This document shows, piece after piece, positions 2 to 55,562 of a stretch of DNA of 64,000 nt. The DNA comes from Myxococcota bacterium. Its GTDB lineage: Bacteria > Myxococcota_A > UBA796 > CAJQPC01. The position numbers and the translations under genes are program-made. The number at the start of each line of letters is the position of its first letter. Position 1 is the first letter of the stretch. The notes below the pieces were generated by a model that saw only the letters and a program-made list of their open reading frames with translations, did not search any database and had not been told where the DNA came from. Where the stretch lies: assembly GCA_023150845.1 (NCBI GenBank), contig JAKLKD010000003.1, positions 6,847 to 70,846 on the forward strand, in the 5' to 3' direction.

Positions 2-973
2 CCCCGGCTGGCGAAGGCGCTCAAGGACGCCGGGATGAAGGCCGTGGGCGTCTCCGTGGACGGCCCGGAGGAGATCCACGACGTGCTCCGGGACAGCGTC
101 GGGAGCTGGCGCTCGGCGATGCGCGCCTTGGAGGTGTGTAAAGAGGTCGGCCTCGTCACCAGCTCCAACACCCAGGTGAACAACCTCAACGCGCACATGC
201 TCCGCGAGATCGGGGCGATGATCAAGAAGACGGGCGTGCGCGTCTGGCGCGTGCAGCTCACCGTGCCCATGGGTCGGGCGGCGGATCGCCCCGAGTGGAT
301 CCTCGATCCCCCGAAGATCCTCGACGTGATCGACACGCTGGCGGCGATGCAGCTCGAAGAGGTCGCCATGGTGCGGGCCAAGGGCCTGCCGCCGGAGCGC
401 GCCTTCAACATCATGTCGTCGAACAACGTCGGCTACTACGGCCCCCACGAGCAGGTGCTGCGCAGCCGCCCCGGCGGCGACGAGGCCTACTGGCGTGGCT
501 GCCAGGCCGGGGTGTACACCATCGGCATCGAGTCCGACGGCACGGTGAAGGGCTGCCCCAGCCTGCCCACCGCGCCGTACACCGGCGGCAAGGTGCGCGA
601 TCTGGGCCTGGAGCAGATCTGGCGGAACGCTGAGGAGCTCAACTTTGTGCGGGAGCGCACGACGGAGGAGCTCTGGGGCTTCTGTAAGACCTGCTACTAC
701 GCCGACATCTGCCGGGCGGGCTGCTCGTTCACCACGCACTGCACCTTAGGCAAACGCGGCAACAACCCCTTCTGTTACCACCGCGCGGCGACGCTCAAGC
801 GCCAGGGCCGCCGTGAGCGCCTGGTGCTCAAGGAGGCCGCCGCGGGCATCCCCTACGACTTCGGGCGCTTCGAGCTCATCGAGGAGGACTGGGACGCGGC
901 GGGCGCTCAGGAGTCCTCGCCGTCGCAGTTGGAGTCGACGCCGTCGCCGTCCACCTCGGGGGCGCCGGGGTAG
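2..973 (+). CDS. radical SAM / SPASM-domain maturase-like protein (5' end cut off by the window edge)
   Basis: The frame-2 ORF stays open to the window edge, with no stop upstream of the Met at 35. The C-terminal half carries a SPASM-type Cys pattern (GCQAGVYTIGIESDGTVKGC ... CKTCYYADICRAGC ... C) as in PqqE/MftC/anSME-type enzymes. The CxxxCxxC core would lie upstream of the window. The last 67 nt overlap array gene P1 convergently. Confidence 0.8.
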   Translation, partial: PRLAKALKDAGMKAVGVSVDGPEEIHDVLRDSVGSWRSAMRALEVCKEVGLVTSSNTQVNNLNAHMLREIGAMIKKTGVRVWRVQLTVPMGRAADRPEWILDPPKILDVIDTLAAMQLEEVAMVRAKGLPPERAFNIMSSNNVGYYGPHEQVLRSRPGGDEAYWRGCQAGVYTIGIESDGTVKGCPSLPTAPYTGGKVRDLGLEQIWRNAEELNFVRERTTEELWGFCKTCYYADICRAGCSFTTHCTLGKRGNNPFCYHRAATLKRQGRRERLVLKEAAAGIPYDFGRFELIEEDWDAAGAQESSPSQLESTPSPSTSGAPG

Positions 974-1233
974 ACGCTGGCGTTGTCATCGTCGCAGTCG
1001 CCGTCGTCGGCGCTGTAGCCGTCGCCGTCTTCGTCGACGTAGCCGCTCTCGGCGACGCCGTAGTCGGTCTCGGGCGCGATCTTGTCGCAGCCCACGAGGC
1101 TGAGGCCCATGAGCGCGGCGGCGGCGGTGGAGCGCAGGCCACACTCGCGGAGCTTGGCGCCGCAGTGAACGCAGACGCAGGACGAGCCCAAGACGTGCTC
1201 GCCACAAGAGGCGCAGGGGATCAGCGCGGGCAT
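907..1233 (-). CDS. array member P1: zinc-ribbon / lipobox / single MopE-like Asp-Cys motif mini-protein (108 aa)
   Basis: MPALIPCASCGEHVLGSSCVCVHCGAKLRECG (6 Cys), then AAAALMGLSLVGC (lipobox-like), then DEDGDGY..GDCDDDNASVYPGA..DGVDSNCDGEDS-stop. GAGG lies upstream of the ATG. Strong paralogy to 11 neighbours. Confidence 0.8.
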   Translation of the reverse strand: MPALIPCASCGEHVLGSSCVCVHCGAKLRECGLRSTAAAALMGLSLVGCDKIAPETDYGVAESGYVDEDGDGYSADDGDCDDDNASVYPGAPEVDGDGVDSNCDGEDS

Positions 1234-1248
1234 GGTTCGCCTCGGGGG

Positions 1249-1689
1249 CTAGGTGTTGTCGTCGCCGTCGCAGTTGGAGTCCACGCCGTCGCCGGGGGTC
1301 TCCGTCGCGCCGGGGAAGACCGCGCCGTCGGTGTCGTCGCAGTCGCCGCCCTCGGCGCTCACGCCGTCGCCGTCTTGGTCCCCGGTGTCGGCGACGCCGT
1401 AGTCCGGGGTGACGGGGCTCGTGTCCTCCTCCTCGACCTCGCTGTCCGCGGCGGAGTCGGCGGAGTCGGCGGTGTCGGCGGTGTCCGCCGTGTCCGGCAC
1501 GCCGTACTTGGGCTGGGGCGCGATGATGTCACAGCCGGGCATGCTCAGACCCATGAGCGCGGCGGCGGCGGTGGCGGCCAAGGTGTGGCGCAGGCCGCAG
1601 TCGCGGAGCTTGGCGCCGCAGTGGACGCAGGCGCAAGAGGCCTCAAGGACGTGCTGGCCGCAGGACGAGCAGGCGATGAGCTGGGGCAT
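1249..1689 (-). CDS. array member P2 (146 aa), with an inserted acidic DTA/DSA repeat linker
   Basis: MPQLIACSSCGQHVLEASCACVHCGAKLRDCG, AAAALMGLSMPGC, DQDGDGV..GDCDDTDGAVFPGA..DGVDSNCDGDDNT-stop. The stop lies 15 nt from the P1 start. Confidence 0.8.
   Translation of the reverse strand: MPQLIACSSCGQHVLEASCACVHCGAKLRDCGLRHTLAATAAAALMGLSMPGCDIIAPQPKYGVPDTADTADTADSADSAADSEVEEEDTSPVTPDYGVADTGDQDGDGVSAEGGDCDDTDGAVFPGATETPGDGVDSNCDGDDNT
1451..1495 (-). repeat. five imperfect 9-nt tandem units inside P2
   Basis: Plus strand reads gcggagtcg gcggagtcg gcggtgtcg gcggtgtcc gccgtgtcc. On the minus strand this encodes the DTADTADTADSADSA stretch. Confidence 0.8.
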
Positions 1690-1698
1690 GGCGTTGAC

Positions 1699-2052
1699 TC
1701 AGGTGTTGGGGTTGCCGTCGCAGTTGGAGTCGATGCCGTCGTCCGCGGCCTCGGCGGCGCCGGGGTACACGCTCGAGTTGTTGTCGTCACAGTCGCCGTC
1801 GGCCACGGTGTAGCCGTCGCCGTCGAGATCCTCAGAGTACCCCGAGTCCGCGAAGCCGTAGTCGGTCTGGATCGGCGCGTCGGTGTCGCTGCCCTCCTTG
1901 TCGCCGCAGGCCGCCAAGGCGAGGCCCATGAGCGCGGCGGCGGCGGTGGAGCGCAGGCCGCAGTCCTTGAGCTTGGCGCCGCAGTGGGCGCAGGCGCAGG
2001 CCGAGGAGAGGACGTGCTGGCCGCAAGCGGCGCAGGCGATGAGCGGGGGCAT
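1699..2052 (-). CDS. array member P3 (117 aa)
   Basis: MPPLIACAACGQHVLSSACACAHCGAKLKDCG, AAAALMGLALAAC, DLDGDGY..GDCDDNNSSVYPGA..DGIDSNCDGNPNT-stop. The stop lies 9 nt from the P2 start. Confidence 0.8.
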   Translation of the reverse strand: MPPLIACAACGQHVLSSACACAHCGAKLKDCGLRSTAAAALMGLALAACGDKEGSDTDAPIQTDYGFADSGYSEDLDGDGYTVADGDCDDNNSSVYPGAAEAADDGIDSNCDGNPNT

Positions 2053-2069
2053 GAGGCGCTCCGAGGAGG

Positions 2070-2393
2070 TCAGGTGTTGTCGTCGCCGTCGCAGTTGGAG
2101 TCGATGCCGTCGTCTACGGTGTCGATGGCGCCGGGGTTGATGGTAGCGTCGTTGTCGTCGCAGTCGTCGGTCTGGGCGTAGTAGCCGTCGCCGTCCTCGT
2201 CATCGTAGCTCACGACGACGCCATACTCAGGCTCAACCTGCAGCACGCAGCCGCCCAGGCTGAGGCCCATGAGCGCGGCCGCGGCGGTGGCGCGCAGCGT
2301 GCAGTCCTTGAGCTTGGCGCCGCAGTGGGCGCAGGCGCAGGCTGAGGCGAGGACGTGCTGGCCGCAGGCGCCGCAGGCGATGAGCGGGGGCAT
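2070..2393 (-). CDS. array member P4 (107 aa from the internal Met)
   Basis: The tracked ORF is 2070..2432. I start it at MPPLIACGACGQHV (cat at 2391-2393) because that aligns with the P1-P3 N-termini. Ends in DEDGDGYYAQTDDCDDNDATINPGAIDTVDDGIDSNCDGDDNT-stop. Confidence 0.75.
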   Translation of the reverse strand: MPPLIACGACGQHVLASACACAHCGAKLKDCTLRATAAAALMGLSLGGCVLQVEPEYGVVVSYDDEDGDGYYAQTDDCDDNDATINPGAIDTVDDGIDSNCDGDDNT

Positions 2394-2409
2394 GACGCGC
2401 TCCGGGGGC

Positions 2410-2718
2410 TCAGGTGTTGTCGTCGCCGTCACAGTTGGAGTCGATGCCGTCGTCTACGGTGTCGATGGCGCCGGGGTTGACGCTGGCGTCGGAGTCGTCG
2501 CAGTCGTCGGCCTGCGCGGCGTAGCCGTCGCCGTCCTCGTCGGTGTAGGCGATGCCGTAGAGGTCTTGGGCGCAGGCGCTCGCGGAGAGCGCGAGGCCCA
2601 TAAACAAGGCCGTCGGGCCGAGCCCACCCCGGCGCACGGCGCCGCCGCAGAAGGCGCAGCGGGCGTTCGGGTCGACGTTGAGCTGCCCGCAGGCGGCGCA
2701 GGAGTAAAGCGTAGGCAT
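2410..2718 (-). CDS. array member P5 (102 aa), 4-Cys ribbon subtype
   Basis: This is the C-terminal part of the 232-aa tracked ORF 2410..3108. The start is set at MPTLYSCAACGQLNVDPNARCAFCGG (cat at 2716-2718). The upstream 130 aa are Ala/Pro/Thr/Arg-rich out-of-family sequence overlapping P6. Ends in DEDGDGYAAQADDCDDSDASVNPGAIDTVDDGIDSNCDGDDNT-stop. Confidence 0.75.
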   Translation of the reverse strand: MPTLYSCAACGQLNVDPNARCAFCGGAVRRGGLGPTALFMGLALSASACAQDLYGIAYTDEDGDGYAAQADDCDDSDASVNPGAIDTVDDGIDSNCDGDDNT

Positions 2719-2734
2719 CGGCGCTCCAGAGCGA

Positions 2735-3070
2735 TCAGGTGTCGTCGCCGCCGTCGCAGTTGGAGTCGATGGTGTCGCCCGCCGTCTCGGTGGCGCCGGG
2801 GAAAACCGTGGCGTCGTCGTCGTTGCAGTCGCCGTCGCGCACGGCGACGCCGTCACCGTCGTTGTCGACGTAGCCCGTGTCCGGCACGCCGTAGAGCGCG
2901 ACGGGGCCGGAGTCGCTGCCGTCTTTGTCGCCGCAGGCCACGAGCGCGAGGCCCATGAGCGCGGCGGCGGCGGTGAAGCGTGTGGCGTTCGGCGCGGCGC
3001 CGCAGCTCGGGCAGGTGTCGGCGTCGGAGAGCACGTGGGCGCCGCAGCGGGCGCAAGAGAGCAGGGGCAT
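2735..3070 (-). CDS. array member P6 (111 aa), 4-Cys ribbon subtype
   Basis: MPLLSCARCGAHVLSDADTCPSCGAAP, AAAALMGLALVAC, DNDGDGV..GDCNDDDATVFPGATETAGDTIDSNCDGGDDT-stop. Confidence 0.8.
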   Translation of the reverse strand: MPLLSCARCGAHVLSDADTCPSCGAAPNATRFTAAAALMGLALVACGDKDGSDSGPVALYGVPDTGYVDNDGDGVAVRDGDCNDDDATVFPGATETAGDTIDSNCDGGDDT

Positions 3071-3171
3071 GGAGACCTCAGGGCTGGGACTAGGGCGACA
3101 AGGCGCACTATACCGCGATCTGAGGCCGTGCCGCGCCTGAGATCGTGATCCGCCGCAGGCCCAGGCCGGGC

Positions 3172-3507
3172 TCAGGTGTTGTCGTCGCCGTCACAGTTGG
3201 AGTCGAGGCCGTCGTCGGTGGTCTCTAAGGCCCCGGGGTTGACCGCGGCGTTGTTGTCGTCGCAGTCGCCGTCACGCACGGCGTAGCCGTCGCCGTCATC
3301 ATCGACGTAGCCCGTGTCGACCACGCCGTAGAGGTCCGAGACGACGGAGTCGCCGCCGTCTTTGTCGCCGCAGGCCACGAGCGCGAGGCCCATGAGCGCC
3401 GCGGCCGCGGTGAGGCGCGTGGGGCTCGGCGCGGCGCCGCAGCTCGGGCAGTGGGCGTCACCGTCGAAGACGTGGGCGCCGCAGCGGGCGCAGGGGCGGA
3501 GGGACAT
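3172..3507 (-). CDS. array member P7 (111 aa from the internal Met), 4-Cys ribbon subtype
   Basis: The tracked ORF is 3172..3615. The start is set at MSLRPCARCGAHVFDGDAHCPSCGAAP (cat at 3505-3507), by alignment with P6 and P8. Ends in DDDGDGY..GDCDDNNAAVNPGALETTDDGLDSNCDGDDNT-stop. Confidence 0.75.
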   Translation of the reverse strand: MSLRPCARCGAHVFDGDAHCPSCGAAPSPTRLTAAAALMGLALVACGDKDGGDSVVSDLYGVVDTGYVDDDGDGYAVRDGDCDDNNAAVNPGALETTDDGLDSNCDGDDNT

Positions 3508-3616
3508 GGCGGGGGACCTCTTGGAGTGGGGGGCGCTCCTTTTTACCATGAGCCGCGGCCAGGTCGTGGCGGGGGCTATCCCCGTGGAAGAATAGTCCCG
3601 ATGTCGGGCGCTCATC

Positions 3617-4012
3617 GTGCTTGTCGTCGGGCGGATGGGCTCTTACCCCGACCTGTGCTCGTCCGCCGGAGTCCATCTGTATCGGGTGGTCCTCTCCGAA
3701 CAGAGCGCGCTCGCTGGACCACATGTCGCCGGTCTCGCGACACGGTTCGGTCCCTCGCTCCCACGCGGCGTGCTCATCGAGGTGAAGCTCAGCGACGACC
3801 CGGGCCACATCAAGCAGGGCTTCGCCGAGGCCATCGTCTACCGCGACGAGCACCGCGCGCTGTTCACCGACGAGCGGGACTGGCCGAAGACGATCCTGGT
3901 CACCTCACGCCCGCTCCTGAGCGAGCCGCGGCGTGGGGATGACGTCATCGCCGTGGACTGGGCGCGCTGGACGCCGGAGGCCGTGCTCGAGGGCATCGTC
4001 TCCGGCTTGTGA
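3617..4012 (+). CDS. hypothetical protein (about 125-131 aa) on the opposite strand, splitting the array
   Basis: Balanced amino-acid composition and clear GC3 bias in its own frame, unlike the Arg/Pro-rich shadow ORFs nearby. No family recognised. The start is uncertain (GTG at 3617 or ATG at 3635). Confidence 0.55.
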   Translation: MLVVGRMGSYPDLCSSAGVHLYRVVLSEQSALAGPHVAGLATRFGPSLPRGVLIEVKLSDDPGHIKQGFAEAIVYRDEHRALFTDERDWPKTILVTSRPLLSEPRRGDDVIAVDWARWTPEAVLEGIVSGL

Positions 4013-4018
4013 GGGGGC

Positions 4019-4357
4019 TCAGGTGTTGTCTTCGCCGTCGCAGTTGGAGTCGATCCCGTCGTCGGGCGTCTCCGTGGCGCCGGGGTTCACGTTCGGATCG
4101 CCGTCATCGCAGTCGTCGCTCTCGGCGTTGTAGCCGTCGCCGTCCTCGTCGATGAACGCCGAGGAGTCGGGCACCCCGTAGGCGGGCTGGATGTCTTTGT
4201 CGCCGCAGGCCACGAGGCCGAGGCCCATCGCCAGGGCCGCCGCCGTCGCGTGCAGCGCGCCGCCGCCGCAGTCGCGGAGCTTGGCGCCGCAGCTCGGGCA
4301 GGCGCAGGAGGTGTCGAGCACATGAACGCCGCAGCGGGCGCAGGGGTGAAGGGACAT
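4019..4357 (-). CDS. array member P8 (112 aa)
   Basis: MSLHPCARCGVHVLDTSCACPSCGAKLRDCG, AAALAMGLGLVAC, DEDGDGYNAESDDCDDGDPNVNPGATETPDDGIDSNCDGEDNT-stop. Confidence 0.8.
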   Translation of the reverse strand: MSLHPCARCGVHVLDTSCACPSCGAKLRDCGGGALHATAAALAMGLGLVACGDKDIQPAYGVPDSSAFIDEDGDGYNAESDDCDDGDPNVNPGATETPDDGIDSNCDGEDNT

Positions 4358-4371
4358 CGGAGGCTCCGGGG

Positions 4372-4788
4372 TCAGCGGTTGTTCTTGCCGTCGCAGTCGG
4401 AGTCTACCCCATCAAACCACCGCTCACGCGCGCCGGGGAAGACGTCGGGCGCGCTGTCGTCGCAGTCGCCTTGGGAGACGAGCACCCCGTCGCCGTCGCC
4501 GTCGAGCTCGGGCGGAGGCTCGACGACGAGCTCCTCGGGCGGAGTGACCTCAGGTGGCGGCATGAGCACGTCCCCGGGCCCGACGCGGTCCATCGGCGGC
4601 ACCCCGTAGGCGGCCTGGAGCTGGTTTGAGCGGTCGGGCTCGTCCGCGCCGACCAAGGTGAGCCCCATGAGCACCGCCGCAGCGCCTCGGGTGAGTTTGC
4701 CCGTCGTGGAGAGGGCGCCACAGCTTGGGCAGGCGCCGGGGCTGGGGGTCAAGAGCGCGCCGCAGCGACCGCAGGGGTGGAGGTGCAT
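4372..4788 (-). CDS. array member P9 (138 aa), variant without the lipobox Cys, Pro-rich linker
   Basis: MHLHPCGRCGALLTPSPGACPSCGA, AAAVLMGLTLVGAD (no Cys), a Pro/Glu linker, then LDGDGDGV..GDCDDSAPDVFPGARERWFDGVDSDCDGKNNR-stop. Confidence 0.8.
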   Translation of the reverse strand: MHLHPCGRCGALLTPSPGACPSCGALSTTGKLTRGAAAVLMGLTLVGADEPDRSNQLQAAYGVPPMDRVGPGDVLMPPPEVTPPEELVVEPPPELDGDGDGVLVSQGDCDDSAPDVFPGARERWFDGVDSDCDGKNNR

Positions 4789-4803
4789 CGTCGGGGCCTC
4801 GGG

Positions 4804-5247
4804 TCAGCGGTTGTTCTTGCCGTCGCAGTCGGAGTCAACACCGTCAAACCAGCGCTCCTTGGCGCCGGGGAGGACGTTGGGGTCGGCGTCGTCACAGTCT
4901 CCGGCCTGGGCGGGAACACCGTCAGCGTCGGCGTCTTGAGCGACGACCACGGGCGGCGGGAGAGGCGTGGCGACGACGCCGTACAGCGGCTCGTCGATCG
5001 GCGGCGGGGGCGGCGGCGGCGGCTCGGGTGGCGGCGGCTCGGGCTCGGGCGGCTCAGGATCGAACACCACACCATACTCTGGCTCAGGGGCCTGACCGGG
5101 ATCATCGGCGCCGAGCAGCGCGAGGCCCATGACAACGGCGGCGGCGGTGCGGGTGAAGGCGCCGCTGAGCTGCCGCCCGCAGTGGGGGCAGACCAAGGCG
5201 GCGCGCTGGACGTGCTGACCGCAGGCAGGGCAGGGGTGGAGCAGCAT
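4804..5247 (-). CDS. array member P10 (147 aa from the internal Met), variant without the lipobox Cys, Pro-rich linker
   Basis: The tracked ORF is 4804..5394. The start is set at MLLHPCPACGQHVQRAALVCPHCG (cat at 5245-5247). Tail is DADADGV..GDCDDADPNVLPGAKERWFDGVDSDCDGKNNR-stop. Confidence 0.75.
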   Translation of the reverse strand: MLLHPCPACGQHVQRAALVCPHCGRQLSGAFTRTAAAVVMGLALLGADDPGQAPEPEYGVVFDPEPPEPEPPPPEPPPPPPPPIDEPLYGVVATPLPPPVVVAQDADADGVPAQAGDCDDADPNVLPGAKERWFDGVDSDCDGKNNR

Positions 5248-5263
5248 CGGCGGGGCCTCGGGC

Positions 5264-5764
5264 TTAGCGGTCTTGTTTGCTGTCGTCGGCGGGCTCGGCG
5301 TCGTCTGGGGCGGAGGCCTCTGGGGTGGGGCCGTCGGTGACGGCCGGCCCCGGCGCCGGGACGGGCGTGACGACGATGCCGTACAGCGGCTCAACGCGGA
5401 TCGGCTCGGGCTCGGGCGGCGGCTCGGGCGGCGGCGTGGGCTCAGGCGGTGGCTCGGGCTCCGGCGGTGGCTCGGGCGGCGGCGGTGGCTCGGGCGGCGG
5501 CGGCTCAGGAGGGGGCTTGGGCCGCTTGGGCCGCTTCTTCTCGGGCACAGGCGGTGGAGGCTCCGGCGCGGGCTGCTCCACCTTGCCGTAGAGGGGCTCG
5601 GGCCGGGGTTCCTCGCCGTGGTCCGCGCCCATCAAGGTGAGGCCCATGACCACGGCCGCCGCGGTGCGGGTGAGCTTGCCGCCGGGGCTCGCCCCGCAGT
5701 GGGGGCAGGCGAGGGCGGTGAGCTGGACGTGCTGCCCGCAGGCGCCGCAGGCGCGGAGGGTCAT
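5264..5764 (-). CDS. array member P11 (166 aa), degenerate: ribbon and hydrophobic segment kept, C-terminal Asp-Cys motif lost
   Basis: MTLRACGACGQHVQLTALACPHCGA, AAAVVMGLTLMGAD, then a very long PEPPPP linker. It ends in ..AEPADDSKQDR with no DCDD/CDG motif. Confidence 0.7.
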   Translation of the reverse strand: MTLRACGACGQHVQLTALACPHCGASPGGKLTRTAAAVVMGLTLMGADHGEEPRPEPLYGKVEQPAPEPPPPVPEKKRPKRPKPPPEPPPPEPPPPPEPPPEPEPPPEPTPPPEPPPEPEPIRVEPLYGIVVTPVPAPGPAVTDGPTPEASAPDDAEPADDSKQDR

Positions 5765-5778
5765 GGGCGCTCCAAGGA

Positions 5779-6123
5779 TCAGGTGTCGTCGCCGCCGTCG
5801 CAGTTGGAGTCGATGCTGTCCCCGGCGGTCTCGGTGGCGCCCGGGAAGACGTTCGCGTCGTCGTCGTTGCAGTCGCCATCCCCGACGGTCACGCCGTCAC
5901 CATCGGCGTCCGCGAGGTACGAGGTGTCGGCCACGCCGTACTCGGGGGCGAAGCCGCTGTCCGAGGGCTCCTTGTCGCCGCAGCCGACCAGCGCGAGGCC
6001 CATGAGCGCGGCGGTCGCGGTGTGGCGCAGCCCGCAGTCGCGGAGCTTGGTGCCGCAGTGGGGGCAAGAGCAGCTGCTCTCAAACACGTGGGTGCCGCAG
6101 TGGGCGCAGCTCGTCATCGGCAT
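5779..6123 (-). CDS. array member P12 (114 aa from the internal Met); promoter-proximal gene of the upstream sub-array
   Basis: The tracked ORF is 5779..6150. The start is set at MPMTSCAHCGTHVFESSCSCPHCGTKLRDCG (cat at 6121-6123), preceded by GAGGAG. Ends in DADGDGV..GDCNDDDANVFPGATETAGDSIDSNCDGGDDT-stop. Confidence 0.75.
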   Translation of the reverse strand: MPMTSCAHCGTHVFESSCSCPHCGTKLRDCGLRHTATAALMGLALVGCGDKEPSDSGFAPEYGVADTSYLADADGDGVTVGDGDCNDDDANVFPGATETAGDSIDSNCDGGDDT

Positions 6124-6163
6124 GGTCGTCTCCTCAGGCTGGATGGTCACGGTGGACGATGGG

Positions 6164-6169
6164 ATTGTA
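6164..6169 (-). promoter_or_regulatory. candidate -10 box (TACAAT on the minus strand) for the P12-P8 sub-array
   Basis: Minus strand reads ttttGGGACTACAATccc about 41 nt upstream of the P12 ATG. The -35 is poor (ccgacc). A related GGGACTATTCT lies upstream of P7 (plus 3589-3599). Confidence 0.35.
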
Positions 6170-6389
6170 GTCCCAAAATCTTGGGGTCGGCGTGGCGACG
6201 GTCCGAGGTTGTGCTACGCTGTTCCCGATGTCGCCCATGAACGCCAACACCCAGACTACGACTACCCTGCCTCTCGGCGGGCTCGTGGTCGTGTCGGCGC
6301 GTTAGCGACGTCCTCACCACCCAGCGCCTCGCCGACGAACGGCGAGGCCCTCGCGGTGTCGTCGCTCGTCGGTCCAACAGGAGACCGAC

Positions 6390-7595
6390 ATGAACAAGCT
6401 CCCTGAAGATCATCGTGTCATCGCTCGCCGCCTCGACCTGCTGCACTTCCAAGAGGAGGCGCCAGGCATGGTGTTCTGGCATCCCCCTGGCTTCACGCTC
6501 CTCCGGGTGCTGGAGGAGGCCTCCCGCGCCGCCTCCGCCCGGGAGGGCTACGTCGAGGTCCGTACACCTCAGGTGCTTCGCGCGCCGATCTGGGCGCAGA
6601 GCGGCCACTGGGAGCACTTCCAGGACGCCATGTTCCGGGTGGGGGACGCCGACGTCCCCGCCGCGCTCAAGCCCGTGAGCTGCCCAGCGCACATCAGCAT
6701 CGTGAACCGACGATCCTTGTCGTGGCGGGAGCTGCCGCTCCGGATCGCGGAGCTCGGCCTCGTGCACCGTGACGAGCAGCAGGGCGCGCTCTGCGGGCTC
6801 CTCCGCCTGCGCCAGTTCACACAAGACGACGGCCACATCTTCTGTGAGCCACACCAGCTCGTCGAGGAGATACGCCGGTTCTGCGCGTCGATCGGGCCGT
6901 TCTACGCGGCCTTCGGCTTTGACCGGGTCGAGGTCGGGCTCTCGACGAGGCCCCCGGCGCGGCTCGGCGACGACGCGGGCTGGGACTTCGCCGAGGCGGC
7001 CTTGGCCGAGGGCGCGGCGCTGGCGGGGCTCCACCCCATGATTCAGCCCGGTGAAGGCGCGTTTTATGGGCCGAAGCTGGAGTTTGTGCTCATCGACGAC
7101 GCCGGACGGCGCTGGCAGTGCGGGACGATGCAGGTGGACCTCGTGATGCCTGAGCGGTTTGACGTGGAGTACGTCGGCCGCGACGGCGCGCGGCGTCGGC
7201 CGGTGATGCTGCACCGGGCCCGGTATGGCAGCCTGGAGCGCTTCATGGGCCTGCTCTTGGAGCATCACCAGGGTCGCCTGCCAGGCTGGCTGGCGCCGGT
7301 CCAGTGCTGGGTGCTGCCGATCAGCGCGGAGCATGAGCCTTGGGCGGAGCACGTCCGGGCGACGCTCGCCGCCGCTGGGCGACGGGTGGAGCTGCGGCCC
7401 TCGGACCAGTCCTTGGGGCGTCGTGTCGCCGAGGCCCACCAGCAGGGCATCCCCGCGGTGCTCGTCGTCGGCGGGCGCGAGGTCGCCGCGCGCTCGGTCG
7501 CCTGGCGTCAGGCCGCCGGGGGCTCGTCGCCGACGCCGCTGGAGGAGGCCGTGGCGCGCCTGAACGCGCTCTGTCGTTGCCCCCTGGAGCCGTGA
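6390..7595 (+). CDS. thrS: threonyl-tRNA synthetase paralog: catalytic core + anticodon-binding domain only (no TGS/editing region)
   Basis: Collinear from residue 1 with the E. coli ThrRS catalytic domain as I recall it. Matches: [25 protein letters not shown] vs [33 protein letters not shown] vs [18 protein letters not shown] vs [22 protein letters not shown] vs [18 protein letters not shown]. The Cys/His/His zinc-ligand positions are kept. 401 aa equals the length of E. coli ThrRS minus its N-terminal ~240 aa. AGGAGA lies 6 nt upstream of the ATG. Confidence 0.88.
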   Translation: [401 protein letters not shown]

Positions 7596-53462: not shown

Positions 53463-55562
53463 ATGAAGCCCCTGCTCCCCTGGCTCACCCTCCTCCTCGT
53501 CGCCTGCAAAGGTGAGGCCGAGGCGCCCCCGACGCTCACGATCACGCCCAGCGCGCTCGACTTTGGCACGGCGCCCGTCGGCGGGGAGTCGGCCCTGGAG
53601 CTCGTCTTGGAGAACTCCGGCGGCGGTCAGATCGACGTGCTCTCCGTGCAGCTCACCGACGGGGACCCCGACGTCTTTGATCTCGACCGCGACGGCAGCT
53701 TGGCGCTCGGCGACGGCCTCTCGCTCACGGTCACCGTCACCTTCACCCCGGAGAAGGAGCAGGTCTACCTGGGGCTCGTGCAGGTGCGCTACGACGACGT
53801 GGACGGCGGGGGCAGCGCGACGGTGAGCCTCACCGGCGAAGGCAGCGCGTCCGAGGCTGACAACGACGCCGACGGTTACCGCGTCGTGGACGGCGACTGC
53901 GACGACAACAACGCCACGATCAACCCCGGCGCGGAAGAGATCTGCGACGGCCGCGACAATGACTGCTCCGGCTCCCCGGGCGGCGACGAGACCGACGCCG
54001 ACGGCGACTCCTGGCTCGTGTGTGAGGGGGACTGCGACGACGGCGACAAGAGCGTCTACCCCGACGCCAAGGAGATCTGCGACGACAAGGACTCCGACTG
54101 CGACGGCAATGAGGCCGACCGCGACGACAGCGACGAGGACGGCTGGAGCATCTGCGACGGCGACTGCGACGACGACGACGACCGCGCCCGGCCCGGCGGG
54201 GTGGAGGTCTGCGACGGCGCCGACAACGACTGCGACGGCGGCGAGGACAACATCGACGCCGACAACGACGGCCACAGCGTGTGCAGCGGCGCGGGGGACT
54301 GCGACGACAACGACCGCCGGGCTTACCCCGTCGTGGTGGACGCCAGCGCCTCCGGCGAAGAGGACGGCACCGACAACAAGCCCTACAACACCATCGACGA
54401 GGGCCTCGCGAACCTCGACGCGGTCTGCCGCACGGTCTGGCTCGCCGCGGGCAGCTACGCCGTGGGGCTCACCTTGGACGGCGAGGAGCTCAACGTCGTC
54501 GGCGAAGGGGTCGATGAGGTCACGCTCACCACGTCCGCGGGCAGCCGCCACTTCGACGTGACCGGCGGCGGGGTCTTGGGCCTCACGACGCTCACGCTCA
54601 GCGGGGCGAGCGCGAGCACCGACGGCGGCTCCATCCGCCTCGTGGACAGCCACGCGATCCTCGACGGCGTGCGCCTGACCGGCAACAGCTCCGCGACGGA
54701 CGGCGGCGCGATCTCCGCCACCTCGTCTACGCTCACGCTCTACGCCGTGGAGCTGCTCGACAACACCGCCGCCGACGACGGCGGCGCGGTCTCGGCGCTC
54801 TCCGCGGAGGTGACCGACAGCGGCTCCTTGTTCTCCGGCAACACCGGGGTGCGCGGCGGCGCCTTGGTCGCCGACTCCTCGACGCTGACGCTCTCCGACT
54901 CCGTGTTCACCGAGAACGCCGCGACGGACAAGGGCGGCGCCGTGGCCGTCATCGCCAGCGGCGGCTTCGTGATCGAGCGCGGGGAGTTCACCCTGAACAC
55001 CGCGGTCAACGGCGGCGGCGGGCTCTCGTTCACCAACGTCTCCGCCGCGGGCTCGACCCTGCGGAACTCCGTCGTGCAGGACAACAACGGCGGCGCCGTC
55101 GGCGGCGGCCTCTCCGTCGAGGGCACCGTCGGGCGCTTCACCGTCGAGAACAACACCCTCGTCGCGAACCAGGCGACCGGCCAGGGCGCCGGGCTCTACG
55201 TCGGCGTCGGCGCGGGCGGGGAGCTCACGATCCTCTCGAACCTCATCTTCCGCGCCCAGGGCTCAAGCGGGCTCTACGTGGACAACGCCGCCGCCCACGC
55301 CGTGAGCTACAACACGGTCTACGCGACGAGCGCAGGGGACAGCGCCAACTTCTCCGGCCCCTTCGCGGCGGGGACGAACGAGAATCGCGCCGAGGATCCC
55401 CTCTTCGTGAGCTTCTCCAACGACCGCGACCCCTCCAACGACGACCTCGATCTCAAGAGCAGCTCCCCCGCCAAAGACAGCGGGCCGCCGGACGCGGCCT
55501 ACAATGACGTGGACAAGACGCGGAACGACCGTGGCCACACCGGCGGCCCCAACAGCAAGTAA
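53463..55562 (+). CDS. large lipoprotein: Ig-like domain + about five MopE-like Cys/Asp metal-binding repeats + right-handed beta-helix
   Basis: LLLVAC lipobox at the internal Met; the upstream 239 codons of the tracked ORF overlap the divergent gene. DADGYRVVDGDCDDNNATINPGAEEICDGRDNDCSG-type repeats, then GGAxxxxxSxLTL beta-helix repeats. Confidence 0.75.
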   Translation: MKPLLPWLTLLLVACKGEAEAPPTLTITPSALDFGTAPVGGESALELVLENSGGGQIDVLSVQLTDGDPDVFDLDRDGSLALGDGLSLTVTVTFTPEKEQVYLGLVQVRYDDVDGGGSATVSLTGEGSASEADNDADGYRVVDGDCDDNNATINPGAEEICDGRDNDCSGSPGGDETDADGDSWLVCEGDCDDGDKSVYPDAKEICDDKDSDCDGNEADRDDSDEDGWSICDGDCDDDDDRARPGGVEVCDGADNDCDGGEDNIDADNDGHSVCSGAGDCDDNDRRAYPVVVDASASGEEDGTDNKPYNTIDEGLANLDAVCRTVWLAAGSYAVGLTLDGEELNVVGEGVDEVTLTTSAGSRHFDVTGGGVLGLTTLTLSGASASTDGGSIRLVDSHAILDGVRLTGNSSATDGGAISATSSTLTLYAVELLDNTAADDGGAVSALSAEVTDSGSLFSGNTGVRGGALVADSSTLTLSDSVFTENAATDKGGAVAVIASGGFVIERGEFTLNTAVNGGGGLSFTNVSAAGSTLRNSVVQDNNGGAVGGGLSVEGTVGRFTVENNTLVANQATGQGAGLYVGVGAGGELTILSNLIFRAQGSSGLYVDNAAAHAVSYNTVYATSAGDSANFSGPFAAGTNENRAEDPLFVSFSNDRDPSNDDLDLKSSSPAKDSGPPDAAYNDVDKTRNDRGHTGGPNSK

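What the first reader, a model, noticed from the sequence alone, without database searches (positions are those of the whole stretch)
907..6123. Twelve-gene tandem array of zinc-ribbon + lipobox + single Asp/Cys-motif mini-proteins
Seen directly in the sequence:
- Twelve minus-strand genes of 102-166 aa share one architecture. The N-terminus is a C-x2-C...C-x2-C zinc ribbon. It has six Cys in P1-P4, P8 and P12 (CxxC-x9-CxCxxC-x6-C) and four Cys in the others.
- Next comes a 13-15 residue Ala/Leu/Gly hydrophobic stretch, then a conserved YG dipeptide, then DxDGDG(Y/V).
- The protein ends in G-D-C-D-D-x4-(V/I)-x-P-G-A-x-E-x3-D-G-x-D-S-N-C-D-G-x-D-N-T immediately before the stop.
- Gaps between cistrons are only 9-17 nt, with GAGG/GGAG upstream of each ATG. 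This implies polycistronic, translationally coupled expression.

The C-terminal block looks like one copy of the myxobacterial 'putative metal-binding' (MopE-like) repeat, as found in the large protein at 53463-55562, but without its middle Cys.

Inference: this is a locally amplified family of very acidic, Ca/Cu/Zn-binding surface mini-proteins, or a set of multi-copy precursor peptides. The array is bracketed by a radical SAM/SPASM gene and an editing-less ThrRS paralog. I cannot match this arrangement to any named system from memory.
Basis: partly seen in the sequence, partly recalled or inferred. Interest (0 to 1): 0.85.

Follow-up and report, generated by a model that had tools for sequence, protein, structure and literature searches.

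The report
Radical-SAM-linked zinc-ribbon lipoprotein precursor array
Twelve tandem genes encode small acidic proteins with an N-terminal zinc ribbon, an export/lipid-anchor signal and a Tyr-Gly motif, and related bacteria keep such genes beside the same radical-SAM enzyme, which suggests an undescribed family of enzyme-modified lipoproteins.

Summary
The array is real. Twelve minus-strand paralogues lie at 907-6123, with GC3 of 0.84-0.97 and dN/dS of 0.14-0.8 against orthologues.

Each has:
- a 4- or 6-Cys zinc ribbon;
- a 14-15-residue hydrophobic signal region, with a lipobox Cys in 9 of 12;
- an invariant Tyr-Gly motif.

Eleven of twelve end in one PF11617 (MopE-type) motif.

The main new result is comparative. 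The convergent radical SAM/SPASM gene (2-973) has orthologues down to 47% identity. In 37 of 46 assessable loci, a zinc-ribbon + signal + YG gene lies within 1 kb of it, in any orientation and in 1-12 copies. None occurs in 1.15 Mb of control DNA. The MopE tail is optional, and the ThrRS paralogue is lineage-specific.

The enzyme has a full 7-Cys SPASM domain and no signal peptide. Its nearest models are peptide maturases (TIGR04103, TIGR03913), below their cut-offs.

Best reading (inferred): these are precursors modified in the cytoplasm by the rSAM enzyme, probably at the YG motif. They would then be exported and lipidated, losing the zinc-ribbon/signal leader. This is a radical-SAM counterpart of the MNIO "DAG-RiPPs" reported in 2026.

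The chemistry, lipidation and metal binding are untested. No family model or paper describing the system was found.

The parts
2..973 (+). Radical SAM/SPASM enzyme gene, 3' part (about 120 N-terminal codons lie outside the window). It is convergent with the array and overlaps P1 by 67 nt.
   Evidence: PF13186 SPASM. Best NCBIfam models are TIGR04103 and TIGR03913, both below cut-off. Orthologues score 444-697 bits in L088, L086 and L007. The full-length alignment shows CxxxCxxC plus 7 conserved SPASM Cys.
907..1233 (-). P1 (108 aa): 6-Cys zinc ribbon, signal with lipobox LVGC, YG, one MopE motif.
   Evidence: AF2 gives confident zinc-ribbon and C-terminal modules and a low-confidence hydrophobic/linker region.
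1249..1689 (-). P2 (146 aa): 6-Cys ribbon, lipobox-like MPGC, two YG motifs, acidic TAD repeat, MopE motif.
1699..2052 (-). P3 (117 aa): 6-Cys ribbon, lipobox LAAC, YG, MopE motif.
   Evidence: dN/dS 0.17-0.18.
2070..2393 (-). P4 (107 aa from ATG): 6-Cys ribbon, LGGC, YG, MopE motif.
2410..2718 (-). P5 (102 aa from ATG): 4-Cys ribbon, SASAC, YG, MopE motif.
2735..3070 (-). P6 (111 aa): 4-Cys ribbon, lipobox LVAC, YG, MopE motif.
3172..3507 (-). P7 (111 aa from ATG): 4-Cys ribbon, lipobox LVAC, YG, MopE motif.
3508..4018 (.). Interruption of the array. It is a remnant of a foreign insertion, not a family member.
   Evidence: 79% nucleotide identity to L088 1465-1718, the edge of a 5-gene AAA_5 island inserted at the same place in L088. 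The + strand ORF 3617-4012 has no Pfam or NCBIfam hit.
4019..4357 (-). P8 (112 aa): 6-Cys ribbon, lipobox LVAC, YG, MopE motif.
4372..4788 (-). P9 (138 aa): 4-Cys ribbon, signal ending LVGA-D (no lipobox Cys), YG, Pro-rich linker, variant MopE motif ending GKNNR.
4804..5247 (-). P10 (147 aa from ATG): same layout as P9, with two YG motifs.
5264..5764 (-). P11 (166 aa): 4-Cys ribbon, LMGA-D, two YG motifs, long Pro/Glu-rich linker, no MopE motif.
   Evidence: The orthologue in L002 has the same layout, so this is not a frameshift artefact.
5779..6123 (-). P12 (114 aa from ATG): 6-Cys ribbon, lipobox LVGC, YG, MopE motif. First gene of the array.
   Evidence: GAGGAG lies 6 nt upstream of the ATG.
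6124..6389 (.). Divergent intergenic region between the array and the ThrRS paralogue. It presumably holds the array's promoter.
   Evidence: Sequence. No sigma-70 consensus was found. An AT-rich quasi-palindrome lies at about 6160-6185.
6390..7595 (+). Context only: ThrRS paralogue lacking the N-terminal TGS/editing domains. It is not a conserved partner of the system.
   Evidence: TIGR00418 scores 411 bits against a cut-off of 384. It aligns to E. coli ThrRS residues 242-615 with the Cys/His/His zinc ligands kept. It is found only in L002-L004.

Best explanation
The twelve genes are an expanded set of precursor proteins for the neighbouring radical SAM/SPASM enzyme.

**Proposed precursor layout (inferred).**
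1. An N-terminal zinc ribbon stays in the cytoplasm. It is proposed to act as the recognition or holding module for the enzyme, which has no RiPP-recognition (RRE) domain.
2. A positively charged stretch follows, then a 14-15-residue hydrophobic region. This is a Sec signal peptide: lipoprotein type (lipobox Cys) in 9 members and signal-peptidase-I type in P9-P11.
3. An exported acidic part carries 1-2 copies of the motif [E/Q]-[P/A]-x-Y-G-[V/I/A]-[P/A]-[D/E]-T.
4. In this lineage, one Ca-binding-type MopE (PF11617) motif with a single Cys pair follows.

**Proposed order of events (inferred).**
1. The cytoplasmic enzyme modifies the unfolded precursor. The conserved YG motif is the most likely site, for example through a radical cross-link involving the Tyr.
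2. The precursor is exported.
3. Lgt and LspA lipidate the Cys and cut off the zinc-ribbon/signal leader.
4. Small, very acidic, modified lipopeptides of roughly 50-95 residues remain on the envelope.

**Shown:** the gene family, its domains and its conserved pairing with the enzyme.
**Inferred:** substrate status, site and chemistry of modification, lipidation, and metal binding.
For: **1. Conserved pairing with the enzyme.**
- Orthologous rSAM genes abut family members in independent genomic backgrounds whose other neighbours all differ: window/L002/L088, L086, L007, L089, L090, L091 and L172.
- In an unbiased set of 80 metagenome loci fetched with the enzyme alone, together with those above, 37 of 46 loci with at least 1 kb of flank on both sides have a zinc-ribbon + hydrophobic + YG ORF within 1 kb.
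- The nearest copy is convergent in 16 loci, same-strand downstream in 9, divergent in 7 and same-strand upstream in 5.
- None occurs in 1.15 Mb of rSAM-less loci or in window 7-64 kb.
- Several upstream copies overlap the enzyme's start by 3-22 nt, which is an operon arrangement.

**2. The enzyme looks like a peptide maturase.**
- It has CxxxCxxC at residues 29-36, so there is no N-terminal RRE and no signal peptide.
- It has seven conserved SPASM Cys.
- Its nearest models are the nif11-class maturase TIGR04103 and the GDL-peptide maturase TIGR03913.
- Its nearest solved relatives are SkfB and PqqE.

**3. Only part of the partner protein is conserved.**
- Across the partner family only the four ribbon Cys, the signal region, the lipobox Cys (over 90%) and Y-G are conserved.
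- 56% of all Tyr in the exported tails are followed by Gly, with a clear flanking logo.
- The MopE tail is dispensable.

**4. Link between the zinc ribbon and the enzyme family.** Of 18,950 NCBIfam models, the one hit by most family members (17 of 64, best E 4e-4) is TIGR03913. In the individually listed hits the match falls in that model's C-terminal zinc-ribbon region, positions 426-470 of 477. A similar ribbon is therefore fused to the sister enzyme family.

**5. Precedent.** RiPP-lipoprotein hybrids (DAG-RiPPs) are modified in the cytoplasm and then processed by the lipoprotein pathway. Their authors predict that examples made by enzymes other than MNIOs may exist (PMC13056109).

**6. The genes are real and constrained**.
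Against: - No modification, lipidation or transcript has been observed. Everything beyond gene context is inference.
- The enzyme family is unusually conserved (60-67% identity among the top 120 hits) and very large (over 7,800 hits at E<1e-30). The partner family found so far is smaller (428 clusters; 640 representatives at E<=1e-10).
- 8-9 of 46 assessable enzyme loci show no partner, so the enzyme may have other substrates or roles.
- One 8-copy array (L001) has no rSAM gene within 10 kb.
- In the window the enzyme is convergent with the array, not co-transcribed.
- The lipobox Cys lies at residues 45-53, outside the range standard lipoprotein rules expect. No signal-peptide predictor was available.
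- Some YG motifs are followed by Gly (YGG). This argues against a simple Tyr-to-residue+2 side-chain cross-link as a universal chemistry.
- In L086 the enzyme follows a sulfatase gene on the same strand. However, it scores only about 50-58 bits on the sulfatase-maturase model.
Confidence: 0.55

Rival explanations
1. The twelve proteins are ordinary small acidic Ca2+- or metal-binding envelope lipoproteins, amplified locally, and are not modified. Their adjacency to the rSAM gene reflects some indirect link, such as shared regulation or a shared envelope process.
For: PF11617 is a widespread extracytoplasmic motif in Myxococcota. The window itself has a canonical multi-repeat lipoprotein at 53463-55562. 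The enzyme family is far larger than the mini-protein family, and some enzyme loci lack a partner. The enzyme is convergent with the array here and so not co-transcribed.
Against: The pairing survives complete turnover of all other neighbours, changes of orientation, and loss of the MopE motif. That is hard to explain without a direct functional link. The enzyme's nearest relatives are peptide maturases.
Confidence: 0.2
2. The target of the rSAM enzyme is the Cys-rich N-terminal region itself, through thioether or other cross-links as in sactipeptides, ranthipeptides or SCIFF. In that case the region is not a zinc ribbon in vivo. The functional product would be the N-terminal peptide released by signal peptidase, or the crosslinked N-terminus would stay attached.
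For: Only the N-terminal part is expected to remain in the cytoplasm with the enzyme. There are four invariant Cys, plus two extra in six members. SPASM enzymes such as SkfB are the closest solved relatives.
Against: AF2 folds residues 1-30 confidently as a classic two-knuckle ribbon, and sub-threshold zinc-ribbon Pfam models match it. A similar ribbon is fused to the sister enzyme family, where it cannot be a substrate core. The invariant YG in the exported part would be left unexplained.
Confidence: 0.12
3. The proteins are uncleaved bitopic membrane proteins, with a cytoplasmic zinc ribbon, a membrane anchor and a periplasmic sensor or binding domain. They would act in signalling or regulation, like the common zinc-ribbon-TM proteins or zinc-binding anti-sigma factors.
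For: Zinc ribbon + TM + ectodomain is a common bacterial layout. There are weak N-terminal matches to TcaA.
Against: The hydrophobic stretch is only 14-15 residues and ends in a lipobox Cys in over 90% of the wider family, which is typical of cleaved signal peptides. No sigma factor or regulator is conserved nearby. Copy numbers of up to 12 do not suit regulators.
Confidence: 0.08
4. The ThrRS paralogue is part of the system, for example through tRNA-dependent peptide modification or as a resistance copy against a product of the cluster.
For: It lies divergently next to the array and lacks the editing domain. A class IIb aaRS gene lies just upstream of the enzyme in L172.
Against: The ThrRS paralogue is absent from every other lineage carrying the pair. 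It keeps all catalytic zinc ligands and scores above the ThrRS equivalog cut-off.
Confidence: 0.03

Closest known systems
DAG-RiPPs: RiPP-lipoprotein hybrids modified by MNIO enzymes (DybA/DybH, NedA/NedBC; PMC13056109)
   Same: Small precursors carry a lipoprotein signal peptide with an invariant lipobox Cys. A cytoplasmic enzyme without a signal peptide is encoded next door. The signal peptide doubles as the removable leader, the modification motifs are repeated, and no dedicated protease or exporter is needed.
   Different: The enzyme here is a radical SAM/SPASM protein, not an MNIO. The signal peptide is preceded by a folded zinc ribbon. The conserved motif is YG rather than CPxCGxG or EGKCG. 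There are up to 12 tandem precursors. Nothing has been shown biochemically.
Radical SAM/SPASM peptide maturases with multi-copy precursors (TIGR04103 nif11-class maturase 3; TIGR03913 GDL-motif maturase)
   Same: These are the best-scoring models for the enzyme over its full length (392-437 and 376-392 bits). They have the same SPASM architecture. Precursor families encoded in several copies nearby are, from my own knowledge, typical of the nif11 class.
   Different: The scores are well below the curated cut-offs (725 and 592). The precursors have no Nif11 domain or GDL motif. TIGR03913 carries its zinc ribbon on the enzyme, whereas here it is on the precursor.
Repeat-motif rSAM/SPASM substrates (three-residue cyclophane 'triceptide' precursors such as Xye/Grr/Fxs; PqqA/PqqE Glu-Tyr cross-link). 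This comparison rests on established knowledge, not on a test here.
   Same: A short aromatic-centred motif is repeated 1-5 times per precursor. There is a Glu/Gln three residues before the Tyr, comparable with E-x-x-x-Y in PqqA. The enzyme is of the SPASM type.
   Different: No sequence membership: the GRRM, FxsB and PqqE models score far lower than TIGR04103. The precursors are exported lipoproteins. The chemistry is unknown.
PF11617 'Cu-binding_MopE' putative metal-binding motif proteins of Myxococcota
   Same: The C-terminal 30 residues of 11 of 12 members match above the gathering score.
   Different: There is a single copy lacking the middle Cys of the canonical E-x-C-D-G-x-D-N-D-C repeat. 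The motif is absent from many rSAM-linked relatives, so it does not define the system.

Membership tests
PF11617 Cu-binding_MopE motif | Match to the Pfam model above the gathering score (27 bits) | tested here: met
   31.9-37.9 bits in the six MopE-bearing members scanned. P11 has no hit.
Zinc ribbon (PF13248/PF13240 type) | Two CxxC knuckles forming a ribbon; match to the model above its cut-off | tested here: inconclusive
   The four Cys are invariant in 12 of 12 window members and 64 of 64 wider members. AF2 gives pLDDT 84-89 for residues 1-30 with two short strands. Only P10 reaches the PF13248 cut-off (27.6 against 27); the others fall below it. Foldseek hits are tiny ribbons at E>=1.
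Bacterial lipoprotein (signal peptidase II substrate) | Positively charged n-region, short h-region, and lipobox [LVI][ASTVI][GAS]C | tested here: inconclusive
   The lipobox and h-region are present in 9 of 12 and in 100 of 136 wider members by regex. The Cys lies at residues 45-53, behind a 25-30-residue ribbon and outside the usual range. No predictor was available and there are no lipidation data.
RiPP / rSAM-modified precursor | Precursor gene conserved next to its modifying enzyme | tested here: met
   37 of 46 loci against 0 in 1.15 Mb of control DNA.
RiPP / rSAM-modified precursor | Demonstrated post-translational modification | not testable with these tools
   Needs co-expression and mass spectrometry.
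RiPP / rSAM-modified precursor | RRE (PqqD-like) recognition domain on the enzyme or a partner | tested here: not met
   CxxxCxxC starts at residue 29, which leaves no room for an N-terminal RRE. No PqqD-like gene was seen nearby.
TIGR04103 nif11-class peptide rSAM maturase 3 (enzyme) | Score at or above the curated cut-off (725 bits) | tested here: not met
   392-437 bits for full-length orthologues.
TIGR03913 GDL-motif peptide rSAM/SPASM maturase (enzyme) | Score at or above the curated cut-off (591.75 bits), with a C-terminal extension to position 477 | tested here: not met
   376-392 bits, and the alignment ends at model positions 389-399.
SPASM subfamily of radical SAM enzymes | CxxxCxxC plus a 7-Cys auxiliary-cluster motif | tested here: met
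   C29/C33/C36 and C274, C292, C335, C338, C344, C348, C365 are invariant in six orthologues. PF13186 and TIGR04085 are hit.
Anaerobic sulfatase-maturing enzyme | Membership of TIGR03942; substrate motif C/S-x-P/A-x-R | tested here: not met
   50-58 bits against a cut-off of 349. The mini-proteins contain no CxPxR motif.
DAG-RiPPs as defined in PMC13056109 | MNIO (DUF692) modifying enzyme | tested here: not met
   No MNIO gene lies next to the array. The neighbour is an rSAM/SPASM gene.
Threonine--tRNA ligase (flanking gene) | TIGR00418 above its cut-off; catalytic zinc ligands | tested here: met
   411.4 bits against 383.65. SCPAH, DDGH and MLHRA are conserved. The N-terminal ~240 residues (TGS + editing domains) are absent.

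The most novel reading that the evidence does not exclude
A class of radical-SAM/SPASM-matured lipoproteins widespread in Myxococcota. A zinc ribbon placed in front of a lipoprotein signal peptide would serve as a detachable recognition module. It is similar to the ribbon fused to the sister enzyme family TIGR03913. The enzyme would install a new cross-link at repeated [E/Q]-P-x-Y-G motifs before Sec export and lipidation. This would be the first radical-SAM 'DAG-RiPP', and the first case of a folded metal-binding domain acting as part of a signal-peptide leader.
Probability: 0.35. Interest if true: 0.8.

Novelty: new variant of a known kind. Interest (0 to 1): 0.72.

Why it matters
- If the model holds, it extends the recently recognised RiPP-lipoprotein (DAG-RiPP) logic from MNIO enzymes to the radical SAM/SPASM superfamily.
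- It defines a large uncharacterised enzyme-substrate family: hundreds of 50%-identity clusters of precursors and thousands of enzyme sequences, mainly in Myxococcota.
- It points to a possibly new radical modification at a Tyr-Gly motif.
- It gives a function to an odd feature, a zinc ribbon in front of a signal peptide. That ribbon could be a new kind of leader or recognition element, or a timing device that holds the precursor in the cytoplasm until it is modified.
- The system is compact (one enzyme and one precursor, with no protease or exporter) and occurs in at least one cultured organism, Paraliomyxa miuraensis. It is therefore directly testable by co-expression and mass spectrometry.

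Tried and rejected
- **ThrRS as a partner.** Rejected, because it is present only in the window's lineage.
- **MopE motif as the defining element.** Rejected, because many rSAM-linked relatives lack it.
- **rSAM as an anaerobic sulfatase maturase**, prompted by the sulfatase next to it in L086. Rejected on model scores and on the absence of a CxPxR motif.
- **Known-family search for the mini-proteins.** Pfam and NCBIfam gave only PF11617 and sub-threshold zinc ribbons, both for window members and for distant members.
- **The search for related loci with the 12-member alignment.** It failed because no conserved stretch was found. The single-protein genome scan mostly returned unrelated PF11617 proteins, with full-length relatives only in L006-L009.
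- **Foldseek of the AF2 model.** It gave only insignificant tiny zinc-ribbon matches.
- **Promoter and terminator scan.** No promoter-like site was found, and three terminator-like sites did not exceed the shuffled expectation.
- **Literature searches.** None found a description of this system. The only relevant paper is the DAG-RiPP study.
- **rSAM-zinc-ribbon fusions among the fetched loci.** None found.
- **First, stricter regex.** It undercounted partners at 28 of 46. Manual inspection and a relaxed pattern gave 37 of 46.

Full report
**1. The observation**

The region 907-6123 holds twelve minus-strand ORFs. With ATG starts preceded by GGAG/GAGG they are:
- P1 907-1233
- P2 1249-1689
- P3 1699-2052
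- P4 2070-2393
- P5 2410-2718
- P6 2735-3070
- P7 3172-3507
- P8 4019-4357
- P9 4372-4788
- P10 4804-5247
- P11 5264-5764
- P12 5779-6123

They align as paralogues, 38-71% identical to P1. Invariant positions are the four zinc-ribbon Cys, G11/G25, M-G-L in the hydrophobic stretch, and Y-G. GC3 in the claimed frame is 0.84-0.97. dN/dS against orthologues in a related MAG (L088/L002) is 0.14-0.8. These are therefore genuine protein-coding genes under purifying selection, loosest in the linkers.

- The lipobox Cys is present in 9 of 12. P9-P11 have L-x-G-A-D.
- P11 has no C-terminal motif, and P9/P10 carry a variant ending GKNNR.
- Two junctions are long: 101 nt between P7 and P6, and 511 nt between P8 and P7.
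- P2 has no obvious Shine-Dalgarno sequence.

The 511-nt gap is a remnant (79% nucleotide identity) of the edge of a five-gene AAA_5 island that interrupts the array at the same place in L088.

**2. Domains**

- The C-terminal ~30 residues match PF11617 (Cu-binding_MopE, 'putative metal-binding motif') above the gathering score in all MopE-bearing members scanned.
- Canonical copies of this repeat, as in the lipoprotein at 53463-55562, carry an extra Cys (E-I-C-D-G-x-D-N-D-C).
- The N-terminus gives mostly sub-threshold zinc-ribbon hits.
- AF2 folds residues 1-30 (pLDDT 84-89) and the C-terminal motif (84-90) confidently. The hydrophobic stretch and linker are at 48-55, so the protein looks like two small modules on a flexible tether. 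Foldseek finds only tiny zinc ribbons, none significant.
- The hydrophobic stretch is 14-15 residues, preceded by Arg/Lys and followed by the Cys. That is the size of a signal-peptide h-region and too short for a membrane anchor. This last point is read from the sequence.
- No NCBIfam or Pfam model covers the family as a whole.

**3. Relatives and context**

- A profile search finds about 80 full-length relatives. All come from metagenomes or MAGs of Myxococcota, some mislabelled. They are named 'hypothetical' or 'putative metal-binding motif-containing protein', and several often share one contig.
- L002 and L088, from one MAG, are syntenic with the window: ThrRS, array, rSAM, lipid A acyltransferase.
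- A marine contig (L086, about 48% identity) has an array of 10-11 copies, again ending convergent with an rSAM/SPASM gene.
- That enzyme is a strong orthologue of the window's: 466 bits over the 312 residues available. So is the one in L007, which abuts a single family member.
- Starting from the enzyme, further cases appeared: L089 (3-4 copies), L090 (5 copies), L172 (5 copies, on a 9.4-Mb contig), and the cultured Paraliomyxa miuraensis (L091).
- In L091 the partner has the zinc ribbon, the lipobox and three [E/D]-Y-G-[V/T]-P-[D/E]-T motifs, but no MopE motif.
- The ThrRS paralogue is found only in the window's lineage.

**4. Test of the association**

I scanned JGI metagenome contigs with an alignment of six enzyme orthologues. 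This fetched 80 loci chosen by the enzyme alone, at 46-99% identity.

I then scanned all ORFs for the pattern CxxC...CxxC + hydrophobic run + YG. Of 46 enzyme loci with at least 1 kb of flank on each side, 37 have such an ORF within 1 kb, mostly within 100 nt. The nearest copy is:
- convergent in 16;
- same-strand downstream in 9;
- divergent in 7;
- same-strand upstream in 5, several of which overlap the enzyme's start codon.

The same pattern occurs 0 times in 1.15 Mb of enzyme-less loci and 0 times in window 7-64 kb.

Copy number per locus is usually 1-2. The window's 12 is the maximum seen. One further locus (L126) has a lipobox/YG-repeat protein with a degenerate ribbon. About 8 loci have no partner, and one 8-copy array (L001) has no enzyme within 10 kb.

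The flanking genes differ in every lineage, so the pairing is not inherited synteny.

**5. What is conserved in the partner**

- Across 64 diverse N-terminal modules only the four Cys and Y-G are invariant. One Gly of the h-region and the lipobox Cys are over 90% conserved.
- Around YG the logo is [E/Q](-3)-[P/A](-2)-x-Y-G-[V/I/A]-[P/A]-[D/E]-T.
- 56% of all Tyr in the exported tails are followed by Gly, although Gly makes up 14% of the residues. Proteins carry 1-5 such motifs.
- The tails are otherwise low-complexity (Asp/Thr/Gly/Pro), with or without a MopE motif.
- The wider family comprises 428 90%-identity clusters and 640 50%-identity representatives at E<=1e-10. None has a functional name.

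**6. The enzyme**

- Full-length orthologues have CxxxCxxC at residues 29-36. That leaves no room for an N-terminal RRE, and there is no signal peptide.
- They have seven invariant Cys of a full SPASM domain and a highly conserved C-terminal tail.
- The best models are the peptide maturases TIGR04103 (392-437 bits, cut-off 725) and TIGR03913 (376-392 bits, cut-off 592). AhbD, NirJ, MftC, PqqE and sulfatase maturases score far lower.
- The closest solved structures are SkfB and PqqE.
- The family is large and unusually conserved.
- Of 18,950 NCBIfam models, the one matched by most mini-protein N-termini (17 of 64, best E 4e-4) is TIGR03913. In the individually listed hits the match falls in its C-terminal positions 426-470. 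The sister enzyme family therefore carries a similar zinc ribbon fused to its C-terminus. The hits are individually weak, but this is a domain-fusion hint that the ribbon works with the enzyme.

**7. Mechanism proposed (inferred)**

1. The zinc ribbon plus signal peptide form a composite leader.
2. The cytoplasmic rSAM/SPASM enzyme recognises the precursor, possibly through the ribbon. It modifies the still-unfolded exported part, most likely at the YG motif(s).
3. Sec export follows.
4. Lgt/LspA (or signal peptidase I for P9-P11) remove the leader.
5. Small, very acidic modified lipopeptides are left on the envelope. In this lineage each carries one Ca-binding-type motif with a single disulfide.

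The logic is that of the DAG-RiPPs reported in 2026 for MNIO enzymes. Those authors state that RiPP-lipoproteins made by other enzyme classes may exist (PMC13056109).

The chemistry is open. Possibilities include a Tyr-centred C-C or C-O cross-link, or a Glu/Gln(-3)-Tyr link reminiscent of PqqE. Some motifs read YGG, which argues against a universal Tyr-to-(+2) side-chain link.

**8. Rivals**

- Unmodified lipoproteins with an indirect link to the enzyme.
- Modification of the Cys-rich N-terminus itself.
- Uncleaved bitopic regulators.
- A ThrRS-dependent process.

The evidence for and against each is set out in the Rival explanations section. None explains the conserved pairing together with the invariant YG as well as the main model does. 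Only experiments can decide.

**9. Novelty**

No Pfam or NCBIfam model and no paper in the searchable library describes the pairing. I file it as a new variant of known kinds: an rSAM/SPASM-modified precursor system and a RiPP-lipoprotein hybrid. Its unusual features are the zinc ribbon in front of the signal peptide and the YG motif. The window shows the most expanded array found so far.

Noticed in passing
window 3508-4018 (and L088 1350-5032): The only large gap in the array is a remnant (79% nucleotide identity) of the edge of a five-gene island on the opposite strand, which includes an AAA_5/McrB-like ATPase. The island interrupts the array at the same position in the related contig L088. 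The window keeps only a 131-codon ORF fragment (3617-4012, +).
   Followed up: partly
window 6390-7595 (+): A ThrRS paralogue with only the catalytic and anticodon-binding domains; it aligns to E. coli residues 242-615. The catalytic zinc ligands are conserved, and it scores above the ThrRS equivalog cut-off. It could be a second, editing-less ThrRS. Whether the genome also has a full-length thrS was not checked.
   Followed up: partly
L172 2372-3745 (+): A class IIb aminoacyl-tRNA synthetase gene (tRNA_anti-codon + tRNA-synt_2) lies immediately upstream of the rSAM gene on a 9.4-Mb contig. This is a second aaRS gene next to the system, after the window's ThrRS paralogue, and may be coincidence.
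   Followed up: no
window ~6160-6185 (between P12 and the ThrRS gene): An AT-rich quasi-palindrome in a ~70% GC genome, read on the minus strand as CCCAAGATTTTGGGACTACAATCCCA (CCCAA-N4-TTGGG overlapping TGGGA-N6-TCCCA). It is a possible operator or promoter element for the divergent genes.
   Followed up: no
NCBIfam TIGR03913 model positions 426-470; TIGR04104: The precursors' zinc ribbon is most similar, among all NCBIfam models, to the C-terminal end of the sister rSAM family TIGR03913 (17 of 64 members hit). One member also hits TIGR04104 (CXXC-20-CXXC zinc-finger protein), whose accession number follows that of TIGR04103. This suggests that zinc ribbons accompany this whole enzyme clade: fused to the enzyme, free-standing, or on the precursor.
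   Followed up: partly
L086 13864-15309 and 587-2059, 16712-18405; L090 5285-7975: Sulfatase and FGE-sulfatase-domain genes lie close to the rSAM gene in two lineages. In L086 a sulfatase is directly upstream on the same strand. In L090 a NACHT + FGE-sulfatase fusion is directly upstream. This may only reflect the abundance of these domains in Myxococcota.
   Followed up: no
L091 9306-9850: In Paraliomyxa miuraensis a toxin-antitoxin pair (Unstab_antitox/ParE) is inserted between the rSAM gene and its zinc-ribbon/YG partner.
   Followed up: no
L002 15803-17098: In one contig of MAG GCA_016706815.1 the rSAM gene is split into two ORFs (285 + 142 aa). A second contig of the same MAG (L088) has it intact, along with a near-duplicate array. 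This could be strain heterogeneity, a pseudogene or an assembly error.
   Followed up: no
window 53463-55562 (+): A lipoprotein (signal ...LLLVAC) with four canonical PF11617-type repeats, followed by a long Gly/Ala/Thr-rich repeat region that looks like a beta-helix. It served as the reference for the canonical motif with the middle Cys.
   Followed up: partly
L108 6126-7220 (+): One rSAM locus without a YG partner has, directly downstream, a different Cys-rich zinc-finger protein with membrane-spanning segments (CARCATPMCSEC...CCARC).
   Followed up: no
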